Assembly: GCA_002347655.1 (NCBI GenBank)
Contig: DDWR01000020.1
Coordinates: forward strand, 76,155-140,154
Length of the DNA: 64,000 bases
Reading direction: 5' to 3'
From: Verrucomicrobia bacterium UBA2281
GTDB taxonomy: Bacteria > Verrucomicrobiota > Kiritimatiellia > CAIQIC01 > Lenti-01
Shown: positions 5,891-62,364 of the stretch, one piece after another
How positions within the stretch are numbered: the stretch's first letter is position 1
How the letters are laid out: every line of letters starts with the position of its first letter
Program-made: the position numbers and the translations under genes
Notes under the pieces: model-generated
Told to the model about the DNA's origin: nothing
The model's database searches: none
What the model saw: only the letters and a program-made list of their open reading frames with translations

Positions 5891-7938
5891 AACCATCCAC
5901 CCGAACCTTCGTGAAAATCGCCAGAAACCTGGTCCCGGCGGATGCGCGCGTGGCGGGGCGCCGCTGGCTGGCGGCGCGCGCTCAGCACGCCCGGCAGGCG
6001 GCCGCCCGTCGCCAGTTGGCCCAGGCGGCCCGCGCGGTGTCGGCGGAATGTCTGGCGGACGTCCGCACGGCGGAAGACTGGCACCGGCGGCGGTCGGATA
6101 TCCGCCGCCAGTTGCGGACCATGCTGGGCCTCGAGCCGTTGCCCGACCGGACTCCGTTGGCGCCCGAAGCCCGGGGCGCGCTGGATCGTCCCGGGTACCG
6201 CATCGAAAAATGGGTGCTCCAGCCCATGCCCGGCATGCATGCCACCGCCAATTTTTATCTTCCGGTCGCCGCGCGCGGCCCGGTGCCCTGCATTCTCTAT
6301 TTGTGCGGCCATCGCGCGCACCCCTGCGGCGCAAAGACGCAGTATCAGGACCGTTTCCTCTGGTATCCGGCCCATGGCTTCGCCTGTTTGGTCTTGGATT
6401 CGCTGAACTGCGGCGAAGTCCCCGGGTTGCACCACGGAACGCAAAACCTGAACCGCCCGGATTGGCTGTCGCTTGGCTATACCCCGGCGGGCGTGGAGGT
6501 TTGGAGCGCCATGCGGGCGCTGGACTACTTGGAAACCCGGCCGGAAGTGGATGGCCGCCGGATCGGCGCCACCGGAATTTCGGGCGGCGGCGTGATGACG
6601 ACGTTCCTGGCGGCGCTCGACGAGCGCATCCAGGCGGCGGCGCCGTCCTGCTCGGCCTATACCGTCGGCGACCAGGCGACGCACGCCCGGTTCGCCTGGC
6701 AATGCGATTGCACGTTCTACCCCAACTGGCATCGCTTGGATTATCCGGCCGTGGCCGCGCTGGTCGCGCCGCGCCCGCTGCTGCTCACCAACGGCCGCAA
6801 GGATCGCATTTTTCCGCCGGCGGGCGCCCGCGAAGTCGGGCGCCGGGCCCGGTGGATCTACGAGTTGCTCGGCGCCGGCGATCGCATCCGCTCCGTCGAA
6901 TCCAACGCGGGCCACGATGATCCGCCGCTGTTCCTTCGGGAGTCGCGCCGGTGGATGTGCCGCTGGCTTCATCCGGAGCCGGCGACGCTTCTTTCCGCCG
7001 TGGCGGACGCGGTTCCGGCCCCCGCGCCGGCGGGTACGCTGGCTTGTTTCAGTTCGCCGCCGCGCACGTCGGCGAATTACGACGTCCACGAGCGGTTCAT
7101 CCCGGCGGCGAAGCCGGCCGCGCCCGCGTCTGCCGGCGATGTCGGTCGTCTGGCCGATGAATTGCGCCGGCGCTTGCGGGACTCCGTCTTTTCTTGGTTC
7201 CCGCACCGGCCGGCCGCCGTACCGGCCCGCCGGGTCGGTGGTTCCACCGGCCGCGCCGACCATTTTGCGTCTGCCGGCGAATGGCTGCTGGAAACCGAGC
7301 CCGGGATCCAGGTCCGCGCGTTCCGCTACGATCCAACGGGACCGGCCAGCGCGCCGCCGCTGGTCGTCGTCCGGCGCCTCGGCGACCGCCTTGGCGTGCT
7401 CGACGACGAATGGCTGCCGCTGTTGGGAACCCGGACGGTCATCGCGGTCCATCCGCGGTTTTCCGAATGCCTGCCCTCGGCCACCGCCGCGATGGAATTG
7501 GAACGCCTGGCCGCATTGAGCGGTCGGACGCTGGCCGCGCTCCAGATCTGGGACGTGTTGCGCACCGTGGAGTGGCTGGGGACGGGCGGGGCGGCGCCGG
7601 ATTCGATCGTTCTCCATGGCTGCGGCGCGGCGGGCGTCGTCGCGCTGTATGCCGCCCTGTTTTCGCCGGCGGTGGGCGAACTCGTCCTGCGCGATCCGCC
7701 GGCGTCGCATCGTTCCGGCCCGGCCTTGCTGGGCGTGTTGCGGACGGCGGACGTTCCCGACGTGGCGGCGGCCTTGGCGCCGCGGACGCTCACGTGGCTG
7801 TCCGATCCGCCGCCCGCGTTTGACGGAACCCGGCAAGCCTATCGCCGGTGCGGCGCGGAGGGCCGGTTCCGCCGCGCGTCTTCGCTGGCCGGGGCCCTGC
7901 TGGATCCGGCCCCGGCCGTTTCGGGAGATCGACGATGA
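5887..7938 (+). CDS. two-domain alpha/beta-hydrolase; N-terminal acetyl-xylan-esterase (AXE1)-like domain with GxSxG (GISGGG), plus a second alpha/beta-fold domain
   Basis: ATGA overlap at 5887 (MKPSTRTF..). AXE1-like motifs (YLCGHRAHPCG.., GATGISGGGVMT). The second half contains ..VLHGCGAAGVV.. (GxCxG). Confidence 0.6.
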   Translation: MKPSTRTFVKIARNLVPADARVAGRRWLAARAQHARQAAARRQLAQAARAVSAECLADVRTAEDWHRRRSDIRRQLRTMLGLEPLPDRTPLAPEARGALDRPGYRIEKWVLQPMPGMHATANFYLPVAARGPVPCILYLCGHRAHPCGAKTQYQDRFLWYPAHGFACLVLDSLNCGEVPGLHHGTQNLNRPDWLSLGYTPAGVEVWSAMRALDYLETRPEVDGRRIGATGISGGGVMTTFLAALDERIQAAAPSCSAYTVGDQATHARFAWQCDCTFYPNWHRLDYPAVAALVAPRPLLLTNGRKDRIFPPAGAREVGRRARWIYELLGAGDRIRSVESNAGHDDPPLFLRESRRWMCRWLHPEPATLLSAVADAVPAPAPAGTLACFSSPPRTSANYDVHERFIPAAKPAAPASAGDVGRLADELRRRLRDSVFSWFPHRPAAVPARRVGGSTGRADHFASAGEWLLETEPGIQVRAFRYDPTGPASAPPLVVVRRLGDRLGVLDDEWLPLLGTRTVIAVHPRFSECLPSATAAMELERLAALSGRTLAALQIWDVLRTVEWLGTGGAAPDSIVLHGCGAAGVVALYAALFSPAVGELVLRDPPASHRSGPALLGVLRTADVPDVAAALAPRTLTWLSDPPPAFDGTRQAYRRCGAEGRFRRASSLAGALLDPAPAVSGDRR

Positions 7939-8831
7939 GCCGGGCGCTGACCGAACGGGAATACGTCGAGCAGAACCCGCAGCTGTTCCGGCGCCTGCAT
8001 TTCCACGACGGCGTCTGGTGGGACCAGGTTTATCCCGGCTACGCCCGTCCGGCCTTCAAGTTCCGGACTTTGGTCCCGGGGGCTGCCCGCCCCGCGCGTG
8101 CGCAGGCCCTCTTCGGCTACAGCCACTTCGTGCCGGAAACGGGCATGGGCAATGCCGCGGTTTCCTACATGGTTCTCGAAGGCGACGATCTGCGCGATTT
8201 CGGGATGCCGCGCTTGGATTCCAAGAAACGGAACCAGGTTCGGAAGGGGCAGAAGTGCTGCGAAGTGCGGACCATTTCGGATTTGGAAGGGTGCCTGGAA
8301 GATGCGCGGGAGGTCTGCGTCAGCCATTCGTTGCGCGGGGCCTCGTCCCGGAAAGCCTACCACGTATCCCACACCTTCTTCATCGATCAGGCGGACACGT
8401 GGCGCGCGCAGATGCGCCGCGATTTCGCCGGCGGCGGCCGCCAATGGTTCGGGGCGTGGCATGCGGGACGCCTGATCGCCTATCTGGTCACGCTCCAGGT
8501 GGAAAGCGTCCTGTTGGTCGAAAAGATGAAGCTGCACTCGGATTACCTGTCGCTTTGCCCCTCCGACGCGCTCTATTTCCACGTGCTTTCGCAGTTCGCG
8601 CAGGATCCTTCCTGTCTTCGGATCTTCAACTCCTCGCCCCAACGTCCCGGACTGGACCGGTTCAAGGAGCAATTCCTGTTCAAGGCGACGCCGGTTCCCC
8701 TTTACGTGTCGAATCCCGTCTCGTATCGGTTCGCCCTGCGGGCCCTGGCGCTGCGGAACAAATGGGTGGAAATCCGCCGGTCCCGGCGGGAGCGGGGCGC
8801 GGATGCGGACCGGGGGGAGGCCGAATCGTGA
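7935..8831 (+). CDS. FemAB/BioF2-like GNAT-fold acyl/aminoacyl-transferase (paralogue 1)
   Basis: ATGA overlap at 7935. Clear paralogy to CDS 14986..15864 (WFGAWHAGRLIAYLV..KMKLHSDYL..SDALYFHV vs HWAVYCEGRMVGFAQ..LIKLHPDFL..SYALFYRM). Family call from recollection. Confidence 0.4.
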   Translation: MSRALTEREYVEQNPQLFRRLHFHDGVWWDQVYPGYARPAFKFRTLVPGAARPARAQALFGYSHFVPETGMGNAAVSYMVLEGDDLRDFGMPRLDSKKRNQVRKGQKCCEVRTISDLEGCLEDAREVCVSHSLRGASSRKAYHVSHTFFIDQADTWRAQMRRDFAGGGRQWFGAWHAGRLIAYLVTLQVESVLLVEKMKLHSDYLSLCPSDALYFHVLSQFAQDPSCLRIFNSSPQRPGLDRFKEQFLFKATPVPLYVSNPVSYRFALRALALRNKWVEIRRSRRERGADADRGEAES

Positions 8832-9979
8832 ACGGCGCAGTGAACAGCGGCGCGACGGCGGTGGTGTGCGGCAACCATATCAACGCCCACACGCTCGTCC
8901 GCAACCTGGAGCGGATCGGGTGGGACGGGCGCATCGTCCTGCTGCGGCACGAGTCGGAAGGGGCGGGGCTGGCCGTCTGCCTGAACCCGCAAGTGGAGCA
9001 TTGGGCCCTCGCCGTCGCGCGGTTGGACGACGTGCCGGCGCTGATCGCGGAGCGCTACGGCGCCGCCGGCGAGGTCGCGGTCCTGTTCACCGACGAGCGC
9101 TACCATCCGGCCTTCGCTGCCTGGAAACGAGCGCATCCGGTGTCGCCGCTGCGGTTCCAGCTGGGGGCCGAAAAACATCTGGACGCCGTGCTGGACCGCT
9201 ACGAGTTCTGCCGATTCGTCCGCGACCGCGGCCTGGCCTCCGCGCCCCGCACGCTGCGCGGCGACGAAGATCCGTTCGCGGCGTTCGGCGCCGCGTTCAT
9301 CGTGCGGCCGCGCCTGTCCTGGTTCGGGGTCGCGCAGCGCGAACGGGTGCGCCTCGTCCGCGGGCGGGAGGAATTCCGGGCGGCGCTGGCGTCCTACGCC
9401 GCGCGCGGCCTGGCGCCGGCGGATTTGAGCTTCCAGGAACTGCTGAGCATCCGCAACCGCGACAACGTGTCCATCAGCGGTTGGTACGGGCCGTCCGCGC
9501 GGCATCTCTATTGCTCCCGCAAGGTGCTGCAATATCCGCCGAAGACGGGCGGGGGCGACGTCGTCGAGCTGCTGGCGCCGCCGCCGGGCATCCAAGAGCA
9601 GGCGGAAGGCCTGCTGGCCGCGTTGGAATACGAAGGCCCGTTCGAGATGGAGTTCGTCTACGACGAGACGGCCGCCGAGTTCAAGGTTACCGAAATCAAT
9701 CCGCGCTTTTGGCTGCAGCAAGGCCTGATCGAAGCGGTTTCGGGCCGCGCGCTGCTGAACGCCTGCCTGGGCCGGCCGCCGTTGCCGACGACGGCGGCAG
9801 AGCGCAACCTGCGCTACTGGGTCAATCCGCTGTACGTGGCGTTTCGGGCATTCCGCGGCGATCCCCGCGGCCTGTTCTACTGGAGTTCGTCGCGCGCCTG
9901 GGTGCCGTTTACGATGCGCGAAGCCGCCCGCTATGCGGGCCGGCGGGCGCGCGGGCAAATCCGGGCCGCGCAAGGATAG
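8828..9979 (+). CDS. ATP-grasp domain protein (carboxylate-amine ligase type)
   Basis: GTG at 8828 overlaps the upstream TGA. ATP-grasp C-terminal motifs (..EYEGPFEMEFVYDETAAEFKVTEINPRFW..). Confidence 0.65.
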   Translation: MNGAVNSGATAVVCGNHINAHTLVRNLERIGWDGRIVLLRHESEGAGLAVCLNPQVEHWALAVARLDDVPALIAERYGAAGEVAVLFTDERYHPAFAAWKRAHPVSPLRFQLGAEKHLDAVLDRYEFCRFVRDRGLASAPRTLRGDEDPFAAFGAAFIVRPRLSWFGVAQRERVRLVRGREEFRAALASYAARGLAPADLSFQELLSIRNRDNVSISGWYGPSARHLYCSRKVLQYPPKTGGGDVVELLAPPPGIQEQAEGLLAALEYEGPFEMEFVYDETAAEFKVTEINPRFWLQQGLIEAVSGRALLNACLGRPPLPTTAAERNLRYWVNPLYVAFRAFRGDPRGLFYWSSSRAWVPFTMREAARYAGRRARGQIRAAQG

Positions 9980-9989
9980 GCGGACAACG

Positions 9990-12206
9990 ATGGCGACGGA
10001 AACGCACAGAATGGAAATCCGCGAGCGGTTGTGCGGGGACCGCGTCGCCCGCGGTGCCGCGGAAGCGGCGCTGACCGCGCTCGGTTGGCTCCGGCCGGGC
10101 GGTGAGGTCCGCGCCGAGATCCGCCGGCGCATCGCGCAGGACGTCTACGGTTGCCGGGCAGACGAGGTGTTTCTCTACAAGAGCGGACGCGCGGCGTTGC
10201 GCGGTCTCCTGGAAGGTCTCCAGTCCGCGGACCCTGCGCGGCGCACGGCCTTCGTGCCGGACTACGTGTGCAACGTGGTCGGAGCCGCCTGCCGGGCCGC
10301 GGGCTTCGCCGTGGCGGAATATGCCACCGACGAACGATGCCTTCCGGATTGGCGGGCGCTGGAGGAACGCGTTCAGGGAGAAACGGCTCCGGTCGTGGTG
10401 CTGTGTTCCTTGTTCGGTTCCGTGCCGGCGGCGGCGCCGGAAGCCGAGGCGCTGGAACGGACGAATCCCCGCATGTTCTTCGTTGCCGACGAATGCCAGA
10501 ACCTCGTCAACGCTTCCCCGGTCAAACCCCGGGCCAACCGGGCCGTGGTGTTCAGCTTCAACGACAAGACCTGCCCGGGCGTCATGGGGGGCGGGGTGGT
10601 TTGCTTGAGCGATTCCGGCGAGGCGCCGGTTTTCGCGCGCGCCCCGTTCAAGCGCCGGGCGATTGGCTCCGTCGCGCTGGCGTACCGCTGGATGTCCGGC
10701 GGCCTGCGCGCCGTTGGCCATGGCCTCCGCTTGGCGCTGGGCCGCTCGGGCGCCTATGCCGCGGCGGAAGCGCCGGAATTTTCGACCTGTCTTGCGCCGC
10801 ATTACGATCTGGTGCCGGAGCCGATCTATCGGCTGTCGGCCGCCCGCGCGTGGATCAGCTTGCGCCATCTGGACGAATACCGCCGGCTGCGGCTCGAAAA
10901 CGCGCAGGCGCTGCAAGCCGGCCTCGCGGTGGAGGCGGCCGTGGCGCAAGCCGGAGCGCCTTATCTGCCCGTGGCGGCCGCGCCGGTGGCTGGGCGCTAT
11001 CCCGCGCCCGTCAAGGCCGCCTACGGCCGCACGGCGCATGCCGCGATTCCCGGCCGGCCGCCGGCCGTGAAAGTCAACGTGCCGCACGTGCGCTATGAAG
11101 TCCGCCCGGCGGCGATCGCCCAGTTGACCAGCCGGCACGCGATCACGGACAACCGCATCCTGCACTGCATGGCCCGCACGGCCGCGGCGCACGGCTACCG
11201 CAGCCTGATCCTCGGTCCCGCCGATCGAGACGGCGCGGTCGGGACGGTCGCGCTGAAGGCGTGTCCCGTTCTGGAAGGCGGGCGGCGCCCGCCGCATCCG
11301 CGGGTTCTGGCCAGCCTGTTCGCCGGCGCGCTCCGCAGCGGCGTGCGCACCTTCCACGTCCACGATCCCGATTTTCTGCCCGTGGCGCTGTTGCTGAAGC
11401 TCTGCGGCCGCCGCATCGTCTACGACGTGCACGACGACTACCAGGCCAGTTTCCAGGATCGCTTCCGGAAGCGGCCGTGGGTCGGGCGCTGGTTCCCGGC
11501 GCTCTGGTGGGCGTTCGAAAAGGGCGCGGCGCGCGCGTTCGACGGCGTCGTGACCGCCGACCAGCACCTGGCGCGCAAATTCGACGGTTGCCGCCCCGTG
11601 ATCCTGCGGAATTATCCGCGGCTGGACTTTACGCCGCCGGCCTCGGCGGAGGGCGAGGAAACGATCAATCTCGTCTACGTCGGGGGCGTGAGCCGCGAAC
11701 GCGGCATCGGCATGGCCCTGGAAGCCCTGCGGCGGGTGCCGCGGCCCGAACTGCGCCTGCACGTGGTCGGCACGGGCCGGGAACCGGACCTGCTGGCGGA
11801 CTTGCAGGCGGAGCCGCGGGTCGTGCTTCACGGCCGCGTGGCCTGGACCGATCTGCGCCGGATCTACGTCAAGAGCCACGTCGGGCTCGCGCTCTACCAA
11901 CCCCGGGCCGGATTCGTGACGATCGACCACTCGGTCAAGATCGTGGAATACATGGCCGCCGGCCTGCCGATCCTGTGCGCCGATTTCCCGGGGCTGAAGA
12001 AGTTCGTCGAAGAATCCGGCTGCGGCTGGACGGTGGCGCCCGACGATCCGGACGCCATTGCCGCCAAGCTGCGGGAGTTGATCGACCATCCGGAAATCCG
12101 TCGTCGCATGGGCGCGACCGGCCGGCGTCTGTTTGAAACGGACTTCAATTGGGAACTTCACGAGCGGGAGCTTGTGGATCTGTATGAAAGGGTTTGCGGC
12201 GCATGA
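9990..12206 (+). CDS. fusion protein: N-terminal DegT/DnrJ/EryC1-like (PLP aminotransferase fold, putative Lys in FSFNDKT) plus C-terminal GT4 glycosyltransferase
   Basis: 738-aa ORF (MATETHRMEIRE..). N-terminal half resembles sugar aminotransferases (..FVPDYVCNVVGAACRAAGF.., ..FFVADECQNL.., ..VFSFNDKTCPGVMGGGVV..). C-terminal 330 aa is GT4 (..INLVYVGGVSRERGI.., ..EYMAAGLPILCADFPGLKKFVEE..). Confidence 0.6.
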   Translation: MATETHRMEIRERLCGDRVARGAAEAALTALGWLRPGGEVRAEIRRRIAQDVYGCRADEVFLYKSGRAALRGLLEGLQSADPARRTAFVPDYVCNVVGAACRAAGFAVAEYATDERCLPDWRALEERVQGETAPVVVLCSLFGSVPAAAPEAEALERTNPRMFFVADECQNLVNASPVKPRANRAVVFSFNDKTCPGVMGGGVVCLSDSGEAPVFARAPFKRRAIGSVALAYRWMSGGLRAVGHGLRLALGRSGAYAAAEAPEFSTCLAPHYDLVPEPIYRLSAARAWISLRHLDEYRRLRLENAQALQAGLAVEAAVAQAGAPYLPVAAAPVAGRYPAPVKAAYGRTAHAAIPGRPPAVKVNVPHVRYEVRPAAIAQLTSRHAITDNRILHCMARTAAAHGYRSLILGPADRDGAVGTVALKACPVLEGGRRPPHPRVLASLFAGALRSGVRTFHVHDPDFLPVALLLKLCGRRIVYDVHDDYQASFQDRFRKRPWVGRWFPALWWAFEKGAARAFDGVVTADQHLARKFDGCRPVILRNYPRLDFTPPASAEGEETINLVYVGGVSRERGIGMALEALRRVPRPELRLHVVGTGREPDLLADLQAEPRVVLHGRVAWTDLRRIYVKSHVGLALYQPRAGFVTIDHSVKIVEYMAAGLPILCADFPGLKKFVEESGCGWTVAPDDPDAIAAKLRELIDHPEIRRRMGATGRRLFETDFNWELHERELVDLYERVCGA

Positions 12207-14427: not shown

Positions 14428-14975
14428 GCCGATGGGGATCGCTGCTCCGCCGCGGCTGGCACGAACGCCGGCGGCTGTGTTTCTACGGGCGCGAGCCCGT
14501 TCCCGAAACGGCGCCGGACGACCGGATCGCGGTTTATCGGAGCTGGGCGGACGTGCCCGCCGCGTTTCGGCGCGTCGTCGCGCCGGCACCGTTGCTGAGC
14601 GCGCCGGTTTGGCGCTTGCGGCGCGGCCGGGCCCAGTTGCTGTGCCTGTCCGTGGATGGGCGCACGCTGGCCGCTTACGGATGGCTTCAGGATTGGCGGT
14701 CGTTCCGCCGCCGGTTCGGCGCGCTGGCGCCGGATGGAACCATGCTGGGACCCTATTGGACGGCTCCGGCGGAGCGCGGCCGGGGACTGTATGGTCGGTT
14801 GCTGGCGCGCAGCCTCGCGTTGTGCCCCCCGAACCGGCCCGCGCTGATCTATGCCGCGCCCGAAAACGCCGCCTCGCGGCGCGGCATCGTCAAAGCCGGC
14901 TTCCGCCCGCTGGGCGAATGGGAATGGCATTGCTGGCTGGGCGTTTTCAGCCGATTCCGGCGGATTCCGGCCTGA
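14424..14975 (+). CDS. GNAT-family N-acetyltransferase (putative)
   Basis: ATGA overlap at 14424. C-terminal GNAT-like motif (..ERGRGLYGRLLARSLAL..IYAAPENAASRRGIVKAGFRPLGEW). Confidence 0.45.
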   Translation: MSRWGSLLRRGWHERRRLCFYGREPVPETAPDDRIAVYRSWADVPAAFRRVVAPAPLLSAPVWRLRRGRAQLLCLSVDGRTLAAYGWLQDWRSFRRRFGALAPDGTMLGPYWTAPAERGRGLYGRLLARSLALCPPNRPALIYAAPENAASRRGIVKAGFRPLGEWEWHCWLGVFSRFRRIPA

Positions 14976-14985
14976 GGTCGAACCG

Positions 14986-15864
14986 ATGAGCTACGTCGAG
15001 CGATATGCGGAGATGTTCCGCGCGAAGAAGCGCCCGTTCGCGGAAGCGGGCGGGCAGCTGTTCGTGCGCAAGGCACGCTGGATCGCGCCGGCCGGCCCCG
15101 CCGCGCAGGCGTACCGGCTGGAAGCGGCGGAGTGCCGCGAACTGCTGCGCCGCTTGGGCGGATGGTGGGTCATGTGGACGGACGGGTTCGGACCGCACGC
15201 GGCGGATTCGGAGTGGCATGCCGTGATCTGCCGCCGGCACGTGCCCGTGGAAGAAGTGGCGTCCGGCAACGTGCGCAGCAAGCTGCGCCGCGGCCTGAAA
15301 AACTGCGAAGCGCGGCGCGTCGATGCGCGGGAAATCGCCCGAAACGGCCACGAAACCTATTGCGCCGCGTTCGGCGAATACGGCCGGGCCGCGGCGGACT
15401 TGCCGTCGCAGGAGGCGTTTGCGCAACGCGTCCTGACCGACGAGCCCTTCGGCGACGTCCGCCACCACTGGGCGGTCTATTGCGAGGGCCGGATGGTGGG
15501 CTTCGCCCAGAATCTCCTGTACGGCAAGCAGGAGGTCGACTACACGCTGATCAAATTGCATCCGGACTTCCTCAATCGCTATTCCTCCTATGCGTTGTTC
15601 TACCGCATGAACGAGTTCTATCTCGCCCAGGAAGGATTCCAGTACGTGAACGACGGATTCCGGTCGATTTCGCACGCCACGGGCATCCAGGATTTCCTCG
15701 TGAAGGAATTCGGCTTCGAGCGGGAACCGACGGGCCTGCACGTGCATTATCGGCCGCCGTTGGGGGCGGCGCTGGGGCTCTCGCGTCCGTTCGGCGCACT
15801 GGCGCGGCGGGCATGTCCGCCCCTTGCGCCGTTGTTCGAACTGGAGCGCTTGCGCCGGAAGTGA
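14986..15864 (+). CDS. FemAB/BioF2-like GNAT-fold acyl/aminoacyl-transferase (paralogue 2)
   Basis: ATG 14986 (MSYVERYAEMF..). Paralogous to 7935..8831 (alignment given there). Confidence 0.4.
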   Translation: MSYVERYAEMFRAKKRPFAEAGGQLFVRKARWIAPAGPAAQAYRLEAAECRELLRRLGGWWVMWTDGFGPHAADSEWHAVICRRHVPVEEVASGNVRSKLRRGLKNCEARRVDAREIARNGHETYCAAFGEYGRAAADLPSQEAFAQRVLTDEPFGDVRHHWAVYCEGRMVGFAQNLLYGKQEVDYTLIKLHPDFLNRYSSYALFYRMNEFYLAQEGFQYVNDGFRSISHATGIQDFLVKEFGFEREPTGLHVHYRPPLGAALGLSRPFGALARRACPPLAPLFELERLRRK

Positions 15865-15867
15865 TGC

Positions 15868-16800
15868 ATGGCCACCTCCGTCCAGCAGTGGCCTGAAGGC
15901 CGCCCGTTCGCGCTGTTCCTGTCGCACGACGTGGACCAGATCCACGACCGCGAGCTGTTCCGCGTGCTGGCCGATCTCAACCACGTTCGCCGCATCTGGA
16001 CGCAGGGGGAGAAGGGAAACGCCGCGCTGGCGCTGCGCCGCGTGGCGCGCGCGCTCATCGCGCCCAAGCCGGCGGAAAAGGATTTCGGCACGATTCTGGA
16101 AATCGAAGCCCGGCACGGTTTCCGCTCCACCTTTTTCGTCCTGCACGATCCCTATTGGAGTCGGCATGGGCCGCGGTATCGGTTGTCCTGTCCGGAAATC
16201 CGGCGCATCGCGGATCTGGTCCGCGGCGCCGGCGGCGAGATCGGCCTGCATGGCGGCTACCTGCGCTTCAACCAGGCGGATGGCTACCGGGAAAGCCGCG
16301 CGGCCTTGCGCGACGCGCTGGGCGTGGACGCCGTCGGCATCCGGAACCATTTCCTGCGCTTTTCGGGCGCGGACACCTGGGCGGCGCAGGAAGCCGCCGG
16401 GTTCCGCTACGACACCACCTTTGGATTCGCCGACCGCCTCGGGCCGCGAGATGACCGTCTCGCGCCGTTCGTACCGGAAGGGCGGACGATTCTCGAACTG
16501 CCCTTGACCGTCATGGACGTGACCTTGTTCCGGAATCTCGGCATGGCGGGCGAGGCGGCCTTGGAGGCCGCCTGGCGGGCGATCGAACCAGTGGCGCAGG
16601 CCGGCGGCCTGGTGACGCTGCTTTGGCACAACAACTACTTCAACGAGCCCGAATATCGCGATTGGCAATGGACCTACGAACAATTGCTGGAACGCTTGGC
16701 TGCCTTGAACCCCTGGTGCGCGACCGGTGCGGAAATCGAACGCCATTGGCGCGCAAACGCCAAAAATAGCGCTTTGGCGGGGCCGGAGACGGCGGTATGA
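15868..16800 (+). CDS. polysaccharide deacetylase, CE4/NodB-homology family
   Basis: ..FALFLSHDVDQIHD.. (Asp-Asp metal motif region), ..FRSTFFVLHD.., ..IGLHGGY.. (His motifs), about 310 aa. Confidence 0.7.
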   Translation: MATSVQQWPEGRPFALFLSHDVDQIHDRELFRVLADLNHVRRIWTQGEKGNAALALRRVARALIAPKPAEKDFGTILEIEARHGFRSTFFVLHDPYWSRHGPRYRLSCPEIRRIADLVRGAGGEIGLHGGYLRFNQADGYRESRAALRDALGVDAVGIRNHFLRFSGADTWAAQEAAGFRYDTTFGFADRLGPRDDRLAPFVPEGRTILELPLTVMDVTLFRNLGMAGEAALEAAWRAIEPVAQAGGLVTLLWHNNYFNEPEYRDWQWTYEQLLERLAALNPWCATGAEIERHWRANAKNSALAGPETAV

Positions 16801-18641
16801 TGCACCCCATGGGCAACTGGATCGCCGCCATCTTGTTGGGAAGCGCTGCCGGCATTTTCCTGCTGAGCAAGTGCCTGTTTCTTGCGGCCTTTCGGCTTGG
16901 GTTTGCGATGGTGCTGGCCAATCTCGTCTATGAGGTGGCCGAACGCAAGGCGAGGCTCGGGCGCACGACGCTGGATGCCATCGCCTGGGTCGCGCTGGTC
17001 GCCGGGTTCGGCCTGTGGGGCGGGGGCTGGGCGGCGGCGGCCGCCGCCGTGTTGCTGGGCCTGGCTTGGATCGGCTATCTGTTCGTGGATGCGGAATGGA
17101 AGGCCGCCCGTCTGGCGCGGCAAAGCACGGAAACGGCTGGGCGCGTGCCGCTGCCCATTCCGCGCCTGGTCGTTTGCATTCGCGGGCCGGTGTTGGAGCG
17201 CGGCCGCGCGGAAGACGATCTCGGCGACTGGCCGGAACGGTGGGAGGATCGGTTTGAAATCGTCGTCCTGAATCCCAGTCCGATGCCGGCCCAATTGCCG
17301 GTCGAAGTCCACGTCGTTTCTTCCACCGTGCAACTGGAGGTGTCGGGAACGGTAGGGGGCGAATTGCCGCCGCCGGCATCCGGCGAAATCGTATCCATGA
17401 AGTTCGGCCTGCGCGCGGCCGGCAGCGGGCCGGGCGGCGAAGTCCGCGTGCACGTCCAGCACGGCGATTTCCATTATCGTCGGACCCTGCGCGTGCGCTC
17501 GATCGTGCCGCGCAGCCAGATCGCCGTGAAGCGGGCGGACGTCCGCCGCTGGAAGGGCGGTGCGCGCGGGGCGTTCGTCTGGCGCGGCGATCAGGATCTC
17601 TACGATCCGGCCACGTTCCAGTCGGCGGACGGCCTGCGCCACGTCTTGGGCCTGGCCCGGCGGTTCCGCATGCCCAACAGCCTGATGCTGTCCGCGCGCC
17701 TGAGCCTGGTGCCGGAAGAACACAAGGCGTTTTGCGAACGCTTTGGCTGGGACCGCAAAACGGGCGAAATCCAGGCCTTCATCCGGTTTCTGCGCGAGGA
17801 AGTGGACAAATCCCCGGAGCAGGAATGGCCGGTCGCGACGGTCAAGCCGTACGCCGCGGAGATTGGCAACCACTTCTATCTGCACTACGGCACGCATGCC
17901 GCGGCCGCCGAGGGCAACGGCTGGAAGAGCCATGCCGGCATCGGGGCCGGTCATTATTCCTGGTTCAGCCGCAATCCGATGGATTCCTTCCTCGAGCAGC
18001 GCGACAACGCCGTGAAAGGCAGCCAGGTTCTGAAGGATGCGCTCGGCGCGGCACCCGCCAGTTTCACGATCCCGAGCGACGTGTTCGACGGCGACACCGC
18101 CCGGGCCATGGAAGCGGCCGGCCTGGAAGTCGGGTCCGAAACCGATACGCCGAAGTGGGAAAAACTGCTGCATTTGGCCCCTCCGCACCATCCCGCCGGC
18201 TGCGAGCGGTTCGTGGAACTGCCGCGCATGCATCCGCGCGATCCCGAGAACGCCGGCCAGGTGGCGATGTTGAAATACTGGGTCGGCGCCGCGCGCCGCT
18301 CGGGACGGGCGCTGGTGTTTTTGGCCCACCACCATTTGATGCGCTACCGGGGCTGCGAAAGCGCGGCGTTGGTCGAAACCTTCCTGCACCACGTGCTGGC
18401 GAACCAGCAGGGCGACCTGTACGTCGGCACGCTGACGGCCGTGGGTCGCTACTGGCGCGACGTGCTCAGCCCGCGCACCCGTTGCGTCAAGGCGACGGCG
18501 ACGGGCAACCGCGTTTCCCTTGCGAACGCCGCTCCGCGCGCGTTCGCGGCCTTGCCGCTGGAAATCGATCTCGGCGGCGGCAAACGCCACCTGCGGCTGG
18601 TGGACGTCGGCGCCAAGGCAACTGTGGATCTAGACGTATAA
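16797..18641 (+). CDS. membrane-anchored deacetylase-like protein (two N-terminal TM helices, beta-rich middle domain, C-terminal NodB/glycoside-hydrolase-deacetylase-like domain); paralogue A
   Basis: ATGA overlap at 16797. 614 aa. His-rich motifs (..GNHFYLHYGTH.., ..LAHHHLMRYRG..). About 35-40% identity by eye to CDS 21549..23330 over the full length. Confidence 0.5.
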   Translation: MMHPMGNWIAAILLGSAAGIFLLSKCLFLAAFRLGFAMVLANLVYEVAERKARLGRTTLDAIAWVALVAGFGLWGGGWAAAAAAVLLGLAWIGYLFVDAEWKAARLARQSTETAGRVPLPIPRLVVCIRGPVLERGRAEDDLGDWPERWEDRFEIVVLNPSPMPAQLPVEVHVVSSTVQLEVSGTVGGELPPPASGEIVSMKFGLRAAGSGPGGEVRVHVQHGDFHYRRTLRVRSIVPRSQIAVKRADVRRWKGGARGAFVWRGDQDLYDPATFQSADGLRHVLGLARRFRMPNSLMLSARLSLVPEEHKAFCERFGWDRKTGEIQAFIRFLREEVDKSPEQEWPVATVKPYAAEIGNHFYLHYGTHAAAAEGNGWKSHAGIGAGHYSWFSRNPMDSFLEQRDNAVKGSQVLKDALGAAPASFTIPSDVFDGDTARAMEAAGLEVGSETDTPKWEKLLHLAPPHHPAGCERFVELPRMHPRDPENAGQVAMLKYWVGAARRSGRALVFLAHHHLMRYRGCESAALVETFLHHVLANQQGDLYVGTLTAVGRYWRDVLSPRTRCVKATATGNRVSLANAAPRAFAALPLEIDLGGGKRHLRLVDVGAKATVDLDV

Positions 18642-18678
18642 TGTCGAATGTCGAACTCCGAATATTGAATGTCGAAGG
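18640..18678. repeat. upstream arm of an inverted repeat: AATGTCGAA x2 plus a TGTCGAA partial, AT-rich
   Basis: taATGTCGAAtgtcgaactccgaatattgAATGTCGAAgg, read directly. Its reverse complement TTCGACATT recurs twice downstream of the enclosed gene (19073-19102). Confidence 0.7.
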
Positions 18679-18692
18679 CAGGACGACGTAGG

Positions 18693-19061
18693 ATGCCGGC
18701 GCAAAAATATGATTTAGAAGATCGGCTGGTGGATTACGCTTCTTTGGTCGTTGAACTGACGGAGGCGTTGCCCAGCACGCGCGCCGGCAATCATTTTGCC
18801 GGGCAATTGTTGCGGTCCGGCACGGCGGCGGCGCCGAATTACGGCGAGGCGCAGGCGGCGGAATCCAGGCGCGACTTTGTCCACAAACTGGGCATCTGCT
18901 TGAAAGAATTGCGCGAATCGCGGATTTGGTTGCGTATCGTTCAGCGGCGGACACTGCTCAAGGCCTCCGTCGTGGAACCCGTTTCGCGAGAAACCGAGGA
19001 GCTGATTCGAATCTTCAAGACCAGCATCGCCACCGCCAAACGCAACGAGGCCAAACATTGA
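18693..19061 (+). CDS. four-helix-bundle protein (TIGR02436 / 23S-rRNA-intervening-sequence-protein family)
   Basis: 122-aa protein (MPAQKYDLEDRLVDYASLVVELTEALPS..AGQLLRSGTAAAPNYGEAQAAESRRDFVHKLGICLKELRESRIWLRI..), matching the canonical family pattern. AGGA about 10 nt upstream of the start. Confidence 0.7.
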   Translation: MPAQKYDLEDRLVDYASLVVELTEALPSTRAGNHFAGQLLRSGTAAAPNYGEAQAAESRRDFVHKLGICLKELRESRIWLRIVQRRTLLKASVVEPVSRETEELIRIFKTSIATAKRNEAKH

Positions 19062-19069
19062 GGCCGGAT

Positions 19070-19102
19070 CCCTTCGACATTCGATGTTCATAATTCGACA
19101 TT
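19070..19102. repeat. downstream arm of the inverted repeat: TTCGACATT x2 plus CGATGTT
   Basis: cccTTCGACATTcgatgttcataaTTCGACATTaag, read directly. It ends 4 nt before the next gene's ATG (19107). Confidence 0.7.
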
Positions 19103-19106
19103 AAGT

Positions 19107-20297
19107 ATGAAAACCGAAAATCATCCTCCTGTTTTGCTGCTCGGCGCGGACGAAAACGAAAGCCTGCCGATCTTGGCGAATTTGCATCGGCATGGCGTGC
19201 CGATCGCGGCGGCCGCGCCCCGGCGGCTCAGCATGGGCCTCTTTTCGCGCTATCCGTCCCGCAAACTGATTTCGCCCGACCCCAACGCCGCGCCGGAGAA
19301 GTTCGTCGACTGGGTGGAGCAAACCGTGAAGGGCGGGGAATACCCCGTGACGATGGTGTGCGGCGAAACCGCGACTTGGCTGATGGCGCAGGCGCGCGAG
19401 CGGCTGGCGCCGCACACGCGGCTGCCGCTGGTGGACGTGTCCAAGTTCTATCTGTGCCGCGACAAGTCGAAGACGATGAAAGAGGCGGCGCGGCTGGGGA
19501 TTCCCACGCCGAAGACCTGGTATCCAGACGACGTGGGCATCGCGGCGGTGGCGGCGGAAATCCCGGCCTATCCCGTGGTGCTCAAGCCGTGCATCAGCAA
19601 CGGCGCGCGGGGCATCCGCTATCCGAAGGACGCGGAAGAGCTGAAAACCATGTATGCCGCGACGCGCGCGGAATACCAAGCGTGCATCGTGCAGGAATTC
19701 GTGCCGCATTCGGGCATGCAGTACAAAGCGGAGGTCATCCTCGACGCGTCCGGGAAGTCGGTCTGCGGCGGCGTCTACGACAAGCCGCGGTTCTATCCGC
19801 CCACCGGCGGCTCCAGCACGCTCAATTCGACGGTGGACCGGCCGGACATCCTCGACTATGCCACCCGGTTCCTGCAGGGCATCGGCTGGTACGGGATGGG
19901 GGATTGCGATTTCATCGAGGACCCGCGCGACAACGTGCCGAAGCTGATGGAAGTGAATCCGCGCTTCACGCGCAGCATCAAGATCCTGGTCGAGGCCGGA
20001 TTGGAATATCCGTATCTGCTCTATCGGCTGGCGCTGGGGTTGCCCATCGAGCCGCAGTTCGCCTACAAGAAGGGCCTGTACCTGCGCTATTTCCTGAGCG
20101 ATTGCGTGTGGTTCCTGCGTTCCAAGAACCGCTTCAAGGCCAAACCGAGCTTCTTCTGGTTCTTCGGGCGGAACCTGCGCGACGAGATTTTCTCGTGGGC
20201 GGATCCGCTGCCGACCGTCGCGTTCGTCGTCGTGTTCTTCTCGCGGTTGCTGAACGCGAAGTCCCGCCAGGCCATGCTGCGGACCAAGACCAAGTGA
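19107..20297 (+). CDS. ATP-grasp domain protein (second copy; carboxylate-amine ligase type)
   Basis: ..YPVVLKPCISNGARGIRY.., ..EVILDASGKSVCGGVYDKPRFYPPTGGSSTLNS.., ..LMEVNPRFTRSIKI.. (ATP-grasp signature regions). Confidence 0.65.
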   Translation: MKTENHPPVLLLGADENESLPILANLHRHGVPIAAAAPRRLSMGLFSRYPSRKLISPDPNAAPEKFVDWVEQTVKGGEYPVTMVCGETATWLMAQARERLAPHTRLPLVDVSKFYLCRDKSKTMKEAARLGIPTPKTWYPDDVGIAAVAAEIPAYPVVLKPCISNGARGIRYPKDAEELKTMYAATRAEYQACIVQEFVPHSGMQYKAEVILDASGKSVCGGVYDKPRFYPPTGGSSTLNSTVDRPDILDYATRFLQGIGWYGMGDCDFIEDPRDNVPKLMEVNPRFTRSIKILVEAGLEYPYLLYRLALGLPIEPQFAYKKGLYLRYFLSDCVWFLRSKNRFKAKPSFFWFFGRNLRDEIFSWADPLPTVAFVVVFFSRLLNAKSRQAMLRTKTK

Positions 20298-26038: not shown

Positions 26039-26100
26039 ATCGACAGCCGGATTGACGGCTGCCGGACAAGCGGGTAGCTTGTTGCCGGACAGATACGGAC

Positions 26101-30507: not shown

Positions 30508-30523
30508 GAGGGAGGGGGGGCAT

Positions 30524-30561: not shown

Positions 30562-30618
30562 AAGGCAGGGACAAGAGATGCGAGATCCGAAGCCCGCGGG
30601 CAATGAAAAGGAGCGCAA

Positions 30619-62335: not shown

Positions 62336-62364
62336 CGCCGGGCAGGGGCGGGGCGTATGTTGGT

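What the first reader, a model, noticed from the sequence alone, without database searches (positions are those of the whole stretch)
7935..20297. Two ATP-grasp ligases plus two paralogous FemAB-like GNAT-fold transferases embedded in the glycan operon
ATP-grasp enzymes (8828-9979, 19107-20297) and FemAB/BioF2-like transferases (7935-8831, 14986-15864) are not core glycan-assembly enzymes. In polysaccharide loci they attach amino acids or small acids to amino or uronic sugars.

Also present are a pyruvyl transferase, hexapeptide and GNAT acetyltransferases, acyltransferase-3, four deacetylase-type proteins and an esterase. Together these predict an unusually heavily decorated, amino-acid-bearing and partly N-deacetylated repeat unit.
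Basis: inference. Interest (0 to 1): 0.55.

Follow-up and report, generated by a model that had tools for sequence, protein, structure and literature searches.

The report
Sugar-decorating ligases in a glycan operon
Four genes inside a long polysaccharide-synthesis operon of an uncultured Kiritimatiellia/Verrucomicrobia-type bacterium encode two ATP-driven ligases and two tRNA-type amino-acid transferases; they most likely attach amino acids or small acids to the sugars, which is unannotated but fairly ordinary glycan tailoring.

Summary
All four ORFs are real, coding, at the stated coordinates, and translationally coupled in one + strand glycan operon.

- **19107-20297:** an ATP-grasp enzyme by Pfam, above the curated cut-offs.
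- **8828-9979:** below every HMM threshold, but a confident AlphaFold model (pLDDT 93) is a full ATP-grasp fold.
- **14986-15864:** no HMM hit, but its model (pLDDT 94) best matches FemX, MprF, Sba18 and ATE1, all aminoacyl-tRNA-dependent tandem-GNAT transferases.
- **7935-8831:** a remote homologue of 14986-15864 (hhalign 98.7%, about 20% identity), so "paralogous" holds only distantly.

None of the four is a housekeeping enzyme.

Comparative genomics refines the function:
- The first ATP-grasp is linked by gene fusions to both domains of the next gene, a DegT-like domain plus a GT4 glycosyltransferase. Its wider family sits beside VimE-like deacetylases in most of 65 genomes.
- The second ATP-grasp occupies a syntenic slot after a deacetylase pair. 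Relatives fill that slot with a FemAB-like protein or an ordinary GNAT.

Best reading: variable cassettes that expose a sugar amine and then re-acylate it, so deacetylation probably feeds re-acylation. Substrates are unknown. These are new members of known enzyme kinds, of moderate interest.

The parts
4592..5890 (+). Wzy_C-family membrane protein (polymerase or ligase). It always precedes the hydrolase and Fem-like pair.
   Evidence: Pfam Wzy_C 61.6 bits. Weak TfpM and PEP_O_lig_1 hits. Conserved order Wzy_C, then hydrolase, then Fem-like.
5887..7938 (+). 683-aa protein with an N-terminal alpha/beta hydrolase (esterase-like) domain and a C-terminal half of unknown function. It is the constant upstream neighbour of 7935-8831.
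   Evidence: Abhydrolase_7, GCE_fung and AXE1 hits on residues 62-320. It co-occurs with the 7935-8831 family in every locus that has either one: L001-L005, L007, L011, L029.
7935..8831 (+). Fem/MprF-like tandem-GNAT transferase, family 1 (298 aa, no TM segment).
   Evidence: PF13480 17.3 bits, below the cut-off. 12 of 28 family members hit PF13480. hhalign to the 14986-15864 family: 98.7%, E=4e-16. In L002-L005 the next gene is a second paralogue of this family.
8828..9979 (+). Divergent ATP-grasp ligase (383 aa).
   Evidence: AF2 pLDDT 93.2. Foldseek hits are all ATP-grasp. E275, E289, N291 and R293 are invariant in the family. The canonical Lys of the K-P motif is Arg160. Fusions to GT4 (L013, L024, P0253, P0259) and to the DegT-like domain (P0334, P0336).
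9990..12206 (+). Two-domain protein: an N-terminal domain of about 370 aa that is DegT-like and putatively PLP-binding, plus a C-terminal GT4 glycosyltransferase. Functional partner of 8828-9979.
   Evidence: GT1/GT4 Pfam hits on residues 552-722. The N-domain has invariant SGRxAL, DxCQ and SFNDK motifs. The only four PDB hits are DegT-family enzymes, but at E 0.5-0.95. Fusion network.
14424..14975 (+). Small putative GNAT acetyltransferase. It is found together with 14986-15864.
   Evidence: Three GNAT Pfams at E about 0.05. An RGRGLYG motif is visible in the sequence. Present with 14986-15864 in L010 and absent with it in L001/L007.
14986..15864 (+). Fem/MprF-like tandem-GNAT transferase, family 2 (292 aa). 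It is an accessory gene.
   Evidence: AF2 pLDDT 93.7. Foldseek top 26 hits are MprF, FemX, Sba18/Sbb17, A-PGS, FemA and ATE1. 9 of 30 family members hit PF13480. Absent from the 79-88% identical relative L001/L007.
15868..16800 (+). CE4-type deacetylase related to the catalytic domain of VimE.
   Evidence: NF053580 VimE 69.7 bits, E=1.7e-19, covering model positions 226-429 only. TIGR03006 E=4.5e-5. Conserved with the next gene in all related loci.
16797..18641 (+). 614-aa membrane-anchored protein, paralogue of 21549-23330, with CE4-like motifs only.
   Evidence: 2-3 N-terminal hydrophobic helices. Invariant RGDxD, NHxxLHY, HHP and HxH motifs. No Pfam, PDB or hhalign support.
19107..20297 (+). 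Canonical ATP-grasp ligase (396 aa) in the variable slot between the deacetylase pair and the next GT4.
   Evidence: Pfam hits above cut-off. VVLKP, QEF and EVNPRF motifs are visible in the sequence. Best PDB hit is 2pn1, an uncharacterised ATP-grasp, E=3e-8. The same slot holds a FemAB-like protein in L008/L011 and a GNAT in L006/L014.
20302..21552 (+). GT4 glycosyltransferase that closes the variable slot.
   Evidence: Glyco_trans_4_4 and Glycos_transf_1 hits. Conserved after the slot in L001, L006, L008, L010, L011, L013 and L014.
21549..23330 (+). 593-aa paralogue of 16797-18641.
   Evidence: A tblastn query with this protein matches the L001 orthologue of 16797-18641 at 36% identity over its full length. 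Polysacc_deac_1 only at E=0.17.
23335..24180 (+). CE4 polysaccharide deacetylase of the XrtA-associated type.
   Evidence: Polysacc_deac_1 83 bits and DUF3473 91 bits. TIGR03006 239.1 bits against a cut-off of 276.2.

Best explanation
The four genes encode tailoring enzymes of a Wzx/Wzy-type operon that builds an acidic amino-sugar polysaccharide. The operon has Wza/Wzc export genes and a UDP-GlcNAc 6-dehydrogenase just upstream of the window. The host is an uncultured Kiritimatiellia/Verrucomicrobia-type bacterium.

The enzymes form amide (or possibly ester) bonds by two different chemistries:
- The two ATP-grasp enzymes activate a carboxylate as an acyl phosphate.
- The two Fem/MprF-like tandem-GNAT enzymes most likely transfer an aminoacyl group from aminoacyl-tRNA.

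They work in cassettes in which a neighbouring enzyme first provides a free sugar amine.

1. **8828-9979 with 9990-12206.** Together these form a unit of DegT-like domain, ATP-grasp and GT4. An amine is made, the ATP-grasp N-acylates it, and the GT4 domain adds or extends the modified sugar.
2. **19107-20297.** This enzyme re-acylates an amine unmasked by the VimE-like CE4 deacetylase 15868-16800, perhaps helped by 16797-18641.
3. **14986-15864 with 14424-14975.** The Fem-like enzyme adds an amino acid. The small GNAT beside it may then N-acetylate that amino acid.
4. **7935-8831.** This enzyme acts with the esterase-like 5887-7938 next to a Wzy_C protein.

Shown here: gene reality, folds, homology, synteny and fusions. 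Inferred: every substrate, the acyl donors, and the direction of the chemistry.
For: **Folds and classes.**

**Not housekeeping.**; the neighbourhoods are all glycan loci.

**Substrate supply.** Directly upstream on the source contig lie a TviB-type UDP-GlcNAc C6-dehydrogenase (606 bits, above the 592 cut-off), a GFO/WbpB-like oxidoreductase and an LbH acetyltransferase. Inside the window are a DegT aminotransferase, a PglF-like dehydratase and a PglC-like initiating transferase.

**Fusions that tie 8828-9979 to 9990-12206.**
- Two Ectothiorhodospira isolate genomes and P0253/P0259 encode ATP-grasp fused to GT4. The Ectothiorhodospira fusion is 61% identical to 8828-9979 and 55% identical to residues 361-735 of 9990-12206.
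- P0334 and P0336 encode the N-domain of 9990-12206 fused to the ATP-grasp (HMM E=1e-27 and 5e-20).

**Association with deacetylases.**
- Of 65 genome loci carrying a relative of 8828-9979, 25 have a VimE-like CE4 gene directly adjacent. A further 22 have one within 8 kb.
- The Methylobacillus neighbour scores 174 bits on the VimE model.
- In four of these loci an AsnB/WbpS-like amidotransferase directly follows the VimE-like gene. No Fem-like gene is detectable in these loci. The ATP-grasp therefore sits where VimA would.

**Slot swapping.**
- Between the deacetylase pair and the next GT4, the window, L001/L007, L010, L013 and L028 carry the ATP-grasp. L008/L011 carry a bona fide Acetyltransf_6/FemAB protein (63 bits). 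L006/L014 carry an Acetyltransf_9/1 GNAT.
- After 7935-8831, other loci carry a second Fem-like paralogue where the window carries the ATP-grasp.

**Precedents.** VimE and VimA place Ser or Gly on the C2 amine of a di-N-acetyl uronic acid (PMC7468200). Cj1438C, an ATP-grasp fused to a GT, amidates GlcA before the next glycosyl transfer (PMC11800379; PMC11800397).
Against: - No biochemical data exist for any of these families. All homologues are annotated "hypothetical".
- Three of the four proteins fail the curated HMM cut-offs.
- 8828-9979 has Arg in place of the canonical ATP-binding Lys and lacks a glycine-rich loop. ATP use is assumed, not shown.
- The fold of 7935-8831 was not modelled. 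It rests on homology to the 14986-15864 family.
- The DegT-like assignment of the N-domain of 9990-12206 is not statistically significant: PDB E 0.5-0.95 and hhalign probability 3%.
- In the window itself the VimE-like gene lies 6 kb from 8828-9979, not beside it.
- The screen for Fem-like genes in distant loci used home-made profiles and could miss canonical VimA.
- Tandem-GNAT folds also include acyl-CoA users such as VipF, Eis and MAB_4324, which appear lower.
Confidence: 0.6

Rival explanations
1. The ATP-grasp enzymes, especially 8828-9979, are uronic-acid amidoligases of the Cj1438C type. They would activate the C6 carboxylate of the HexNAc-uronic acid in the growing chain and couple it to a small amine. 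That amine would be made by the PLP-like N-domain of 9990-12206, and the GT4 domain would extend the chain only after amidation.
For: - The triad of PLP enzyme, ATP-grasp and GT, including the fusions, mirrors Cj1436/Cj1437 plus Cj1438 (GT2 fused to ATP-grasp) in C. jejuni HS:2.
- A UDP-GlcNAc 6-dehydrogenase lies upstream.
Against: - This reading does not explain why relatives of 8828-9979 sit next to CE4 deacetylases in 47 of 65 loci.
- Some of those loci also carry a WbpS-like amidotransferase, which already serves the carboxylate.
- Neither ATP-grasp hits the TupA-like ATP-grasp Pfam to which Cj1438C belongs.
- 19107-20297 swaps with N-acyltransferases (GNAT, FemAB-like), not with amidotransferases.
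Confidence: 0.22
2. The two Fem-like proteins are acyl-CoA-dependent tandem-GNAT N- or O-acyltransferases, or non-catalytic CelD-like proteins. They would not be aminoacyl-tRNA-dependent transferases, and no amino acid would be attached by them.
For: - PF13480 is a generic GNAT family.
- Acyl-CoA-using tandem GNATs (VipF, Eis2, MAB_4324, the clavulanate tandem GNAT) also appear among the Foldseek hits, at E 1e-6 to 1e-5.
- Neither window protein hits TIGR03019 or FemAB.
Against: - The 26 best structural matches are all aminoacyl-tRNA-dependent enzymes, at E 1e-9 to 8e-7.
- 7 of 44 proteins in a mixed set (members of both families plus four Fem-like neighbours from L002/L004) weakly hit TIGR03019, the family of VimA (PMC7468200).
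- The pairing with a VimE-like deacetylase and with a small GNAT fits aminoacylation followed by N-acetylation.
Confidence: 0.15
3. 7935-8831 and 5887-7938 form an MprF-like writer and eraser pair. The Fem-like enzyme would O-aminoacylate a hydroxyl of a lipid or glycan, and the alpha/beta hydrolase would remove the ester. This would tune surface charge rather than build the repeat unit.
For: - MprF and A-PGS domains are among the best structural matches of the sister family.
- The hydrolase and the Fem-like gene are strictly co-inherited.
- Aminoacyl-PG synthases are often paired with aminoacyl-PG hydrolases (my own knowledge, not tested here).
Against: - 7935-8831 has no membrane or flippase domain.
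- The pair is always embedded between a Wzy_C gene and glycosyltransferases in glycan operons.
- The structure of 7935-8831 itself was not modelled.
Confidence: 0.1

Closest known systems
Wbp/Vim pathway of Porphyromonas gingivalis and Tannerella forsythia: VimE (CE4 deacetylase) plus VimA (TIGR03019-like Fem-type transferase), optionally with the WbpS amidotransferase (PMC7468200)
   Same: - A CE4 deacetylase related to VimE is present (15868-16800, E=1.7e-19).
- Fem-like tandem-GNAT enzymes lie in the same operon.
- A HexNAc-uronic acid pathway lies upstream (UDP-GlcNAc 6-dehydrogenase, WbpB-like and WbpD-like genes).
- The logic is the same: remove an N-acetyl group, then install another acyl or aminoacyl group.
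   Different: - 15868-16800 lacks the N-terminal half of VimE and scores 70 bits against a cut-off of 440.
- The Fem-like proteins do not reach TIGR03019.
- In the syntenic slot the acylating enzyme here is an ATP-grasp ligase, not a VimA.
- No T9SS or exosortase cargo link was found.
Cj1438 of Campylobacter jejuni HS:2: a GT2 fused to a TupA-like ATP-grasp amidoligase, fed by the PLP enzymes Cj1436 and Cj1437 (PMC11800379, PMC11800397)
   Same: - An ATP-grasp is physically coupled to a glycosyltransferase, fused in Ectothiorhodospira, P0253 and P0259, and adjacent here.
- It is also coupled to a PLP-like domain, fused in P0334 and P0336.
- It sits in a capsule or EPS locus that makes a uronic acid.
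   Different: - It is a different ATP-grasp family, with no ATPgrasp_TupA hit.
- The glycosyltransferase is GT4, not GT2.
- The PLP-like domain is fused to the GT.
- The family is associated with CE4 deacetylases, which Cj1438 is not known to be.
FemX, FemA, MprF and Sba18-type aminoacyl-tRNA-dependent transferases (tandem-GNAT fold)
   Same: The predicted fold of 14986-15864 matches them best (Foldseek E 1e-9 to 8e-7, TM about 0.5-0.57). The size is the same, at about 290-335 aa.
   Different: - Sequence identity is 11-17%.
- There is no Pfam FemAB or DUF2156 hit.
- The context is a polysaccharide operon, not peptidoglycan, lipid or antibiotic biosynthesis.
- tRNA dependence is untested.
PRK12767/PRK06849-type "carbamoyl-phosphate-synthase-like" ATP-grasp proteins (PDB 2pn1), uncharacterised
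   Same: 19107-20297 is closest to these: 74 and 62 bits on the NCBIfam models, and 2pn1 at E=3e-8.
   Different: The scores are far below the models' cut-offs (218 and 406 bits). No function is known for that group either.

Membership tests
ATP-grasp superfamily (19107-20297) | Pfam ATP-grasp domain above the gathering score | tested here: met
   CPSase_L_D2 40.8 bits (cut-off 19.8), ATP-grasp_3 34.4 (23.2), ATPgrasp_Ter 29.3 (29.1).
ATP-grasp superfamily (19107-20297) | ATP-binding Lys (K-P motif), hinge Q-E, and Mg ligands E-x-N followed by Arg | tested here: met
   VVLKP (K160), IVQEFV and MEVNPRF are read directly from the sequence.
ATP-grasp superfamily (8828-9979) | HMM match above the curated cut-off | tested here: not met
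   CPSase_L_D2 16.5 bits against 19.8, covering residues 255-310 only. PDB profile hits reach only E of 6e-4 or weaker and only the C-terminal part.
ATP-grasp superfamily (8828-9979) | Three-domain ATP-grasp fold | tested here: met
   AF2 pLDDT 93.2. The 50 Foldseek hits listed (235 reach E<=0.001) are all ATP-grasp enzymes, aligned over 312-363 columns, with TM about 0.47-0.60.
ATP-grasp superfamily (8828-9979) | Catalytic and nucleotide-binding residues | tested here: inconclusive
   E275, E289, N291, R293, Q203 and E204 are invariant or nearly so. However, the K-P lysine is Arg160 and there is no glycine-rich loop.
TupA-like ATP-grasp amidoligases (Cj1438C type) | Match to the TupA-like ATP-grasp Pfam family | tested here: not met
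   No such family appeared among the Pfam hits at E<=0.01 for either ATP-grasp.
Housekeeping ATP-grasp enzymes (Ddl, PurK, AccC, CarB, RimK) | NCBIfam equivalog score above the cut-off | tested here: not met
   For 19107-20297 the Ddl, Van, AccC and RimK models score 17-34 bits against cut-offs of 143-1027. For 8828-9979 the only hit is urea carboxylase at 17 bits against 1304.
Acetyltransf_6 / FemAB (Pfam PF13480, PF02388) | HMM match above the gathering score | tested here: not met
   7935-8831 scores 17.3 bits against 22. 14986-15864 has no hit even at E<=10. At family level, 12 of 28 and 9 of 30 members hit PF13480 at E<=0.1.
Fem/MprF/ATE1-type tandem-GNAT aminoacyl-tRNA transferases | Tandem-GNAT fold most similar to the solved members | tested here: met
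   For 14986-15864: pLDDT 93.7, with the top 26 Foldseek hits being MprF, FemX, Sba18/Sbb17, A-PGS, FemA and ATE1. For 7935-8831 this holds only through hhalign at 98.7% to that family.
Fem/MprF/ATE1-type tandem-GNAT aminoacyl-tRNA transferases | Use of aminoacyl-tRNA as the donor | not testable with these tools
   This needs an enzyme assay.
VimA / TIGR03019 pepcterm_femAB | NCBIfam match | tested here: not met
   Neither window protein hits at E<=0.01. 7 of 44 proteins in a mixed set (members of both families plus four Fem-like neighbours from L002/L004) hit weakly, best 1e-5.
VimE (NF053580) | Full-length match above the 440-bit cut-off | tested here: not met
   15868-16800 scores 69.7 bits and covers model positions 226-429 only. 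It is related in the catalytic domain but is not an equivalog.
XrtA/PEP-CTERM EPS system | TIGR03006 deacetylase above cut-off, plus PEP-CTERM proteins | tested here: not met
   23335-24180 scores 239.1 bits against 276.2. No ORF in the window has a credible PEP-CTERM tail. An exosortase gene was not specifically searched for.

The most novel reading that the evidence does not exclude
ATP-grasp ligases of the 8828-9979 type may be tRNA-independent, ATP-driven replacements for VimA. Paired with a VimE-like deacetylase or a DegT-like aminotransferase domain, they would install a non-acetyl N-acyl or N-aminoacyl group on a (uronic) amino sugar just before glycosyl transfer. In that case bacteria from at least ten phyla would use three interchangeable enzyme classes (ATP-grasp, Fem-like, GNAT) in one syntenic slot to diversify the same sugar position. 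The resulting free-amine-bearing sugar could also serve, as in P. gingivalis, as an attachment point for surface proteins.
Probability: 0.3. Interest if true: 0.6.

Novelty: new member of a known kind. Interest (0 to 1): 0.38.

Why it matters
Amino-acid and other non-acetyl N-acyl or amide substituents are common in bacterial surface glycans. They determine charge, antigenicity and phage or host recognition. The enzymes that install them are mostly unassigned.

Three of the four proteins here are invisible to Pfam and NCBIfam and are annotated "hypothetical" everywhere. Placing them by structure and synteny has three uses:
- **Annotation handles.** It covers three uncharacterised families: 61 and 163 word-index hits at E<=0.001 for the two Fem-like families, and 129-595 50%-identity clusters for the 8828-9979 type.
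- **A testable rule.** An amine-exposing enzyme is followed by an interchangeable amide-forming enzyme.
- **Cultured organisms for testing.** Ectothiorhodospira shaposhnikovii DSM 243 and Thiocapsa rosea carry the relevant homologues.

It is not a new kind of system.

Tried and rejected
- **Apparent ATP-grasp/CE4 fusion in L071.** This is a frameshift artefact. The ATP-grasp profile is split over two reading frames. The long ORFs in L061, L067 and L048 are out of frame with the ATP-grasp match, by my own arithmetic from the coordinates.
- **PDB sequence and profile searches.** Searches for the 7935-8831 family, the 14986-15864 family, 15868-16800 and the 16797-18641 family found nothing meaningful.
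- **CE4 status of 16797-18641.** hhalign of this family against the CE4 deacetylase 23335-24180 gave probability 0.5%. The "four deacetylases" claim could therefore not be confirmed for two of the four.
- **DegT-like N-domain.** hhalign of the N-domain of 9990-12206 against the DegT aminotransferase 24896-26038 aligned the PLP-lysine motif, but at probability 3%.
- **PEP-CTERM link.** No sorting tails were found on the giant proteins or on any other ORF in the window. The exosortase and protein-anchoring idea therefore has no support here.
- **Literature.** Searches for an ATP-grasp in E. coli K40 serine addition and in Acinetobacter K loci found nothing usable. The Lipocone preprint was irrelevant.
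- **Caps reached.** The third Foldseek job went unused for lack of a model.

Full report
**1. What is in the sequence**

The window has about 67% G+C, so raw ORF lists are useless. A third-position GC frame plot shows one unbroken series of + strand genes from position 1 to about 33,500. Start codons mostly overlap the preceding stop. The four ORFs of the finding are real genes at exactly the stated coordinates. 7935-8831 starts at an ATG that overlaps the upstream stop. 8828-9979 starts at a GTG that overlaps the stop of 7935-8831. 14986-15864 and 19107-20297 have homologues of the same lengths.

Pfam and NCBIfam identify the surrounding genes:
- pyruvyl transferase, hexapeptide acetyltransferase, Wzx-type flippase and GT2;
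- a Wzy_C protein and a 683-aa protein with an esterase-like alpha/beta hydrolase domain;
- several GT4 enzymes and an Acyl_transf_3 protein;
- CE4 deacetylases, a PglC-like initiating transferase, a DegT aminotransferase and a PglF-like dehydratase.

An identical copy of the left part of the window is on record in a JGI metagenome contig. Upstream of the window that contig carries:
- Wza-like and Wzc-like export genes and a second Wzy_C gene;
- a TviB-type UDP-GlcNAc C6-dehydrogenase (606 bits, above its 592-bit cut-off);
- a WbpB-like oxidoreductase and an LbH acetyltransferase.

The operon therefore makes an acidic, amino-sugar-rich polysaccharide. The closest genomes are uncultured Verrucomicrobia and Kiritimatiellia MAGs.

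**2.

19107-20297 is an ordinary ATP-grasp protein by Pfam, with three families above their cut-offs. It has the canonical K-P, Q-E and E-x-N-P-R motifs. Its nearest relatives are uncharacterised "carbamoyl-phosphate-synthase-like" ATP-grasps: the PRK12767 and PRK06849 models, well below their cut-offs, and PDB 2pn1.

8828-9979 fails all HMM thresholds. A 30-sequence alignment gave an AlphaFold model with pLDDT 93.2. All of the 50 Foldseek hits listed are ATP-grasp enzymes aligned over almost the full length: biotin carboxylases, PurK, PurT, the L-amino-acid ligase RizA and PylC. The Mg-ligand and catalytic motif (E275, E289, N291, R293) is invariant in the family. The usual ATP-binding lysine is an arginine, and there is no glycine-rich loop.

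14986-15864 has no HMM hit at all. Its model (pLDDT 93.7) is a tandem-GNAT fold. Its 26 best structural matches are all aminoacyl-tRNA-dependent transferases: the MprF/A-PGS soluble domain, FemX, FemA, Sba18/Sbb17 and ATE1. Acyl-CoA-using tandem GNATs come only after those.

7935-8831 has a sub-threshold Acetyltransf_6 hit. 12 of 28 members of its family hit that model, and 9 of 30 members of the 14986-15864 family do too. The two families are homologous by profile-profile comparison: 98.7% probability, E=4e-16, 234 columns, 20% identity.

The classes are therefore confirmed. "Paralogous" means only remote homology, and the two ATP-grasps are barely similar.

**3. Context of each gene in relatives**

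*7935-8831.* The family is small: 61 clusters, all annotated "hypothetical". It is always preceded by the 683-aa hydrolase-like gene and a Wzy_C gene. In L002-L005 the gene after it is a second paralogue of the same family. In the window, L001/L007 and L011 that position is taken by the ATP-grasp 8828-9979.

*8828-9979.* The family comprises 129 50%-identity clusters at E<=1e-30 and 595 at E<=1e-10, out of 1.84 billion representatives. A scan of one genome per species found 65 loci, ranging from Kiritimatiellia, Verrucomicrobiota and Planctomycetota to Proteobacteria, Firmicutes, Cyanobacteria, Bacteroidota and Acidobacteria. Three regularities emerged:
- Closer relatives are followed by glycosyltransferases homologous to 9990-12206 and 12203-13396.
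- Gene fusions link the ATP-grasp to both halves of 9990-12206. In Ectothiorhodospira lacustris and E. shaposhnikovii, two independent isolate assemblies, and in P0253 and P0259, the ATP-grasp is fused in frame to the GT4 part. In P0334 and P0336 the N-terminal domain of 9990-12206 is fused to the ATP-grasp (HMM E=1e-27 and 5e-20).
- 25 of the 65 loci have a CE4 gene related to 15868-16800 immediately adjacent, and 22 more have one within 8 kb. The Methylobacillus neighbour matches the VimE model over nearly its full length (174 bits, E=4e-51). In four of these loci an AsnB/WbpS-like amidotransferase directly follows the VimE-like gene. No Fem-like gene was detectable in these loci with my profiles.

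The N-terminal domain of 9990-12206 carries invariant SGRxAL, DxCQ and SFNDK motifs. Its only four PDB matches are DegT-family sugar aminotransferases or dehydratases. Their E-values of 0.5-0.95 are not significant, so this is a lead rather than a result.

*14986-15864.* With the small weak GNAT 14424-14975, this is an accessory pair. Both genes are present in L010 and both are absent from L001/L007. In L001 a hexapeptide-like ORF occupies the position, and in L004 and L006 a methyltransferase does.

*19107-20297.* This gene lies in a slot between the conserved pair 15868-16800/16797-18641 and the GT4 20302-21552. The content of that slot differs between loci:

| Loci | Gene in the slot |
|---|---|
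| window, L001/L007, L010, L013 | ATP-grasp of the 19107-20297 type (in L028 the homologue lies after a 21549-23330-like gene, in a rearranged order) |
| L008, L011 | Acetyltransf_6/FemAB protein (63 bits, above its cut-off) |
| L006 (Thiocapsa), L014 | Acetyltransf_9/1 GNAT |

**4. How it most likely works**

Three classes of amide-forming enzyme alternate in one syntenic position directly after a deacetylase. The classes are ATP-grasp, Fem-like and acyl-CoA GNAT. The simplest reading is a conserved deacetylation followed by a variable re-N-acylation.

The same logic unifies the contexts of the 8828-9979 family. Its neighbour is always an enzyme that would expose a sugar amine, either a VimE-like deacetylase or a DegT-like domain. 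It is also fused or adjacent to the glycosyltransferase that would use the modified sugar.

The published Wbp/Vim pathway works this way, with VimE and the Fem-like VimA placing Ser or Gly on the C2 amine of a di-N-acetyl-glucuronic acid (PMC7468200). ATP-grasp chemistry, in which an acyl phosphate is attacked by an amine, suits the same step. RizA and PylC, among the best structural matches, do exactly this with amino-acid carboxylates.

I therefore favour N-acylation of a sugar amine for both ATP-grasps. I favour aminoacyl-tRNA-dependent aminoacylation for the two Fem-like enzymes, with 14424-14975 possibly N-acetylating the added amino acid.

The main rival is Cj1438C-type amidation of the uronic carboxylate, with an amine made by the PLP-like domain. 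It is backed by the striking parallel of PLP enzymes, ATP-grasp and fused GT in C. jejuni. It does not explain the link to deacetylases, the co-occurrence with WbpS-like genes, or the swap with N-acyltransferases.

For 7935-8831, the strict pairing with an esterase-like hydrolase keeps open an MprF-like O-aminoacylation and hydrolysis cycle.

All substrates, donors and products are inferred.

**5. Comparison with known systems, and novelty**

The proteins work like known glycan-tailoring amide ligases and Fem-type transferases. They are not members of the curated families. They fail Acetyltransf_6/FemAB, TIGR03019, the TupA-like ATP-grasp Pfam, VimE (70 bits against 440) and, narrowly, TIGR03006 (239 against 276). 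No PEP-CTERM proteins are encoded in the window.

These are new, unannotated families within known superfamilies, doing a known kind of job. The slot-swapping and the fusion network of DegT-like domain, ATP-grasp and GT4 are modest new observations that make the function testable in cultured bacteria. A specialist would not be much surprised, so interest is moderate to low.

**6. Verdict**

- Observation: confirmed.
- Interpretation: partly supported. The classes and the general role are right. The paralogy is overstated. One ATP-grasp is core to the locus type rather than accessory. Deacetylation probably feeds re-acylation. Only two of the four "deacetylases" are confirmed.

Noticed in passing
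window 9990-11100 (N-terminal domain of the 738-aa GT4 protein): A domain of about 370 aa with no Pfam hit carries invariant SGRxAL, DxCQ and SFNDK motifs typical of DegT-type PLP enzymes. Its only PDB matches are four DegT-family enzymes, at E 0.5-0.95. In P0334 and P0336 the same domain is fused to an ATP-grasp of the 8828-9979 type.
   Followed up: partly
L013 9998-12328 and L024 9998-12328 (Ectothiorhodospira lacustris and E. shaposhnikovii): A single in-frame ORF of about 778 aa fuses a homologue of 8828-9979 (61% identity) to the GT4 part of 9990-12206 (55% identity). P0253 and P0259 have the same architecture.
   Followed up: yes
window 16797-18641 and 21549-23330: These are two paralogous proteins of about 600 aa (about 36% identity via the L001 orthologue). 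Each has 2-3 N-terminal transmembrane helices, a beta-rich middle region and invariant RGDxD, NHxxLHY, HHP and HxH motifs reminiscent of CE4 deacetylases. No HMM, hhalign or PDB match supports that assignment. They are conserved next to the VimE-like gene across phyla.
   Followed up: partly
window 18669-19061; also L072 7752-8105: A 23S-rRNA-intervening-sequence-family gene (PF05635) sits inside the glycan operon in a lower-GC stretch. It is absent at this position in the close relative L001/L007. A second copy lies between the WbpB-like and LbH genes upstream of the window.
   Followed up: no
window 26198-26713: A HepT-like ribonuclease toxin gene (PF01934, 96 bits) lies between the DegT aminotransferase and the PglF-like dehydratase. 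The region from about 26,000 to 27,000 has lower GC and a weak coding signal. The partner antitoxin was not looked for.
   Followed up: no
window 29083-32827: Two radical-SAM/SPASM proteins and two PqqD-like domains (one fused, one free-standing) lie directly downstream of the sugar genes on the same strand. The layout resembles a RiPP maturase set. No precursor peptide was searched for.
   Followed up: no
window 33763-44436 and 53566-62226: There are two giant ORFs. One is about 3,550 aa, with 10 SdrD_B repeats, 5 MBG_3 domains and a gingipain-type Peptidase_C25 domain. The other is about 2,880 aa, with an alpha-amylase catalytic domain and a TSP3 repeat. GC3 is 0.87-0.91. Neither has a PEP-CTERM tail. 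Their C-terminal 40 residues look loosely alike.
   Followed up: partly
window 4592-5890 and L072 1657-3159: The full locus encodes two Wzy_C-family proteins. One is presumably the polymerase. The other may be a ligase or O-oligosaccharyltransferase, given weak TfpM and PEP_O_lig_1 hits for 4592-5890.
   Followed up: no
L049, L053, L059, L065 (about 10-13 kb in each locus): These loci show a three-gene string of ATP-grasp, VimE-like deacetylase and AsnB/WbpS-like amidotransferase. No Fem-like gene is detectable within 10 kb. It resembles a Wbp/Vim pathway with an ATP-grasp in place of VimA.
   Followed up: partly
window 62156-64000: A Peptidase_S24 gene (UmuD/LexA-like) overlaps the start of an IMS-family (UmuC/DinB-like) polymerase gene. 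It is a umuDC-type pair at the right edge of the window.
   Followed up: no
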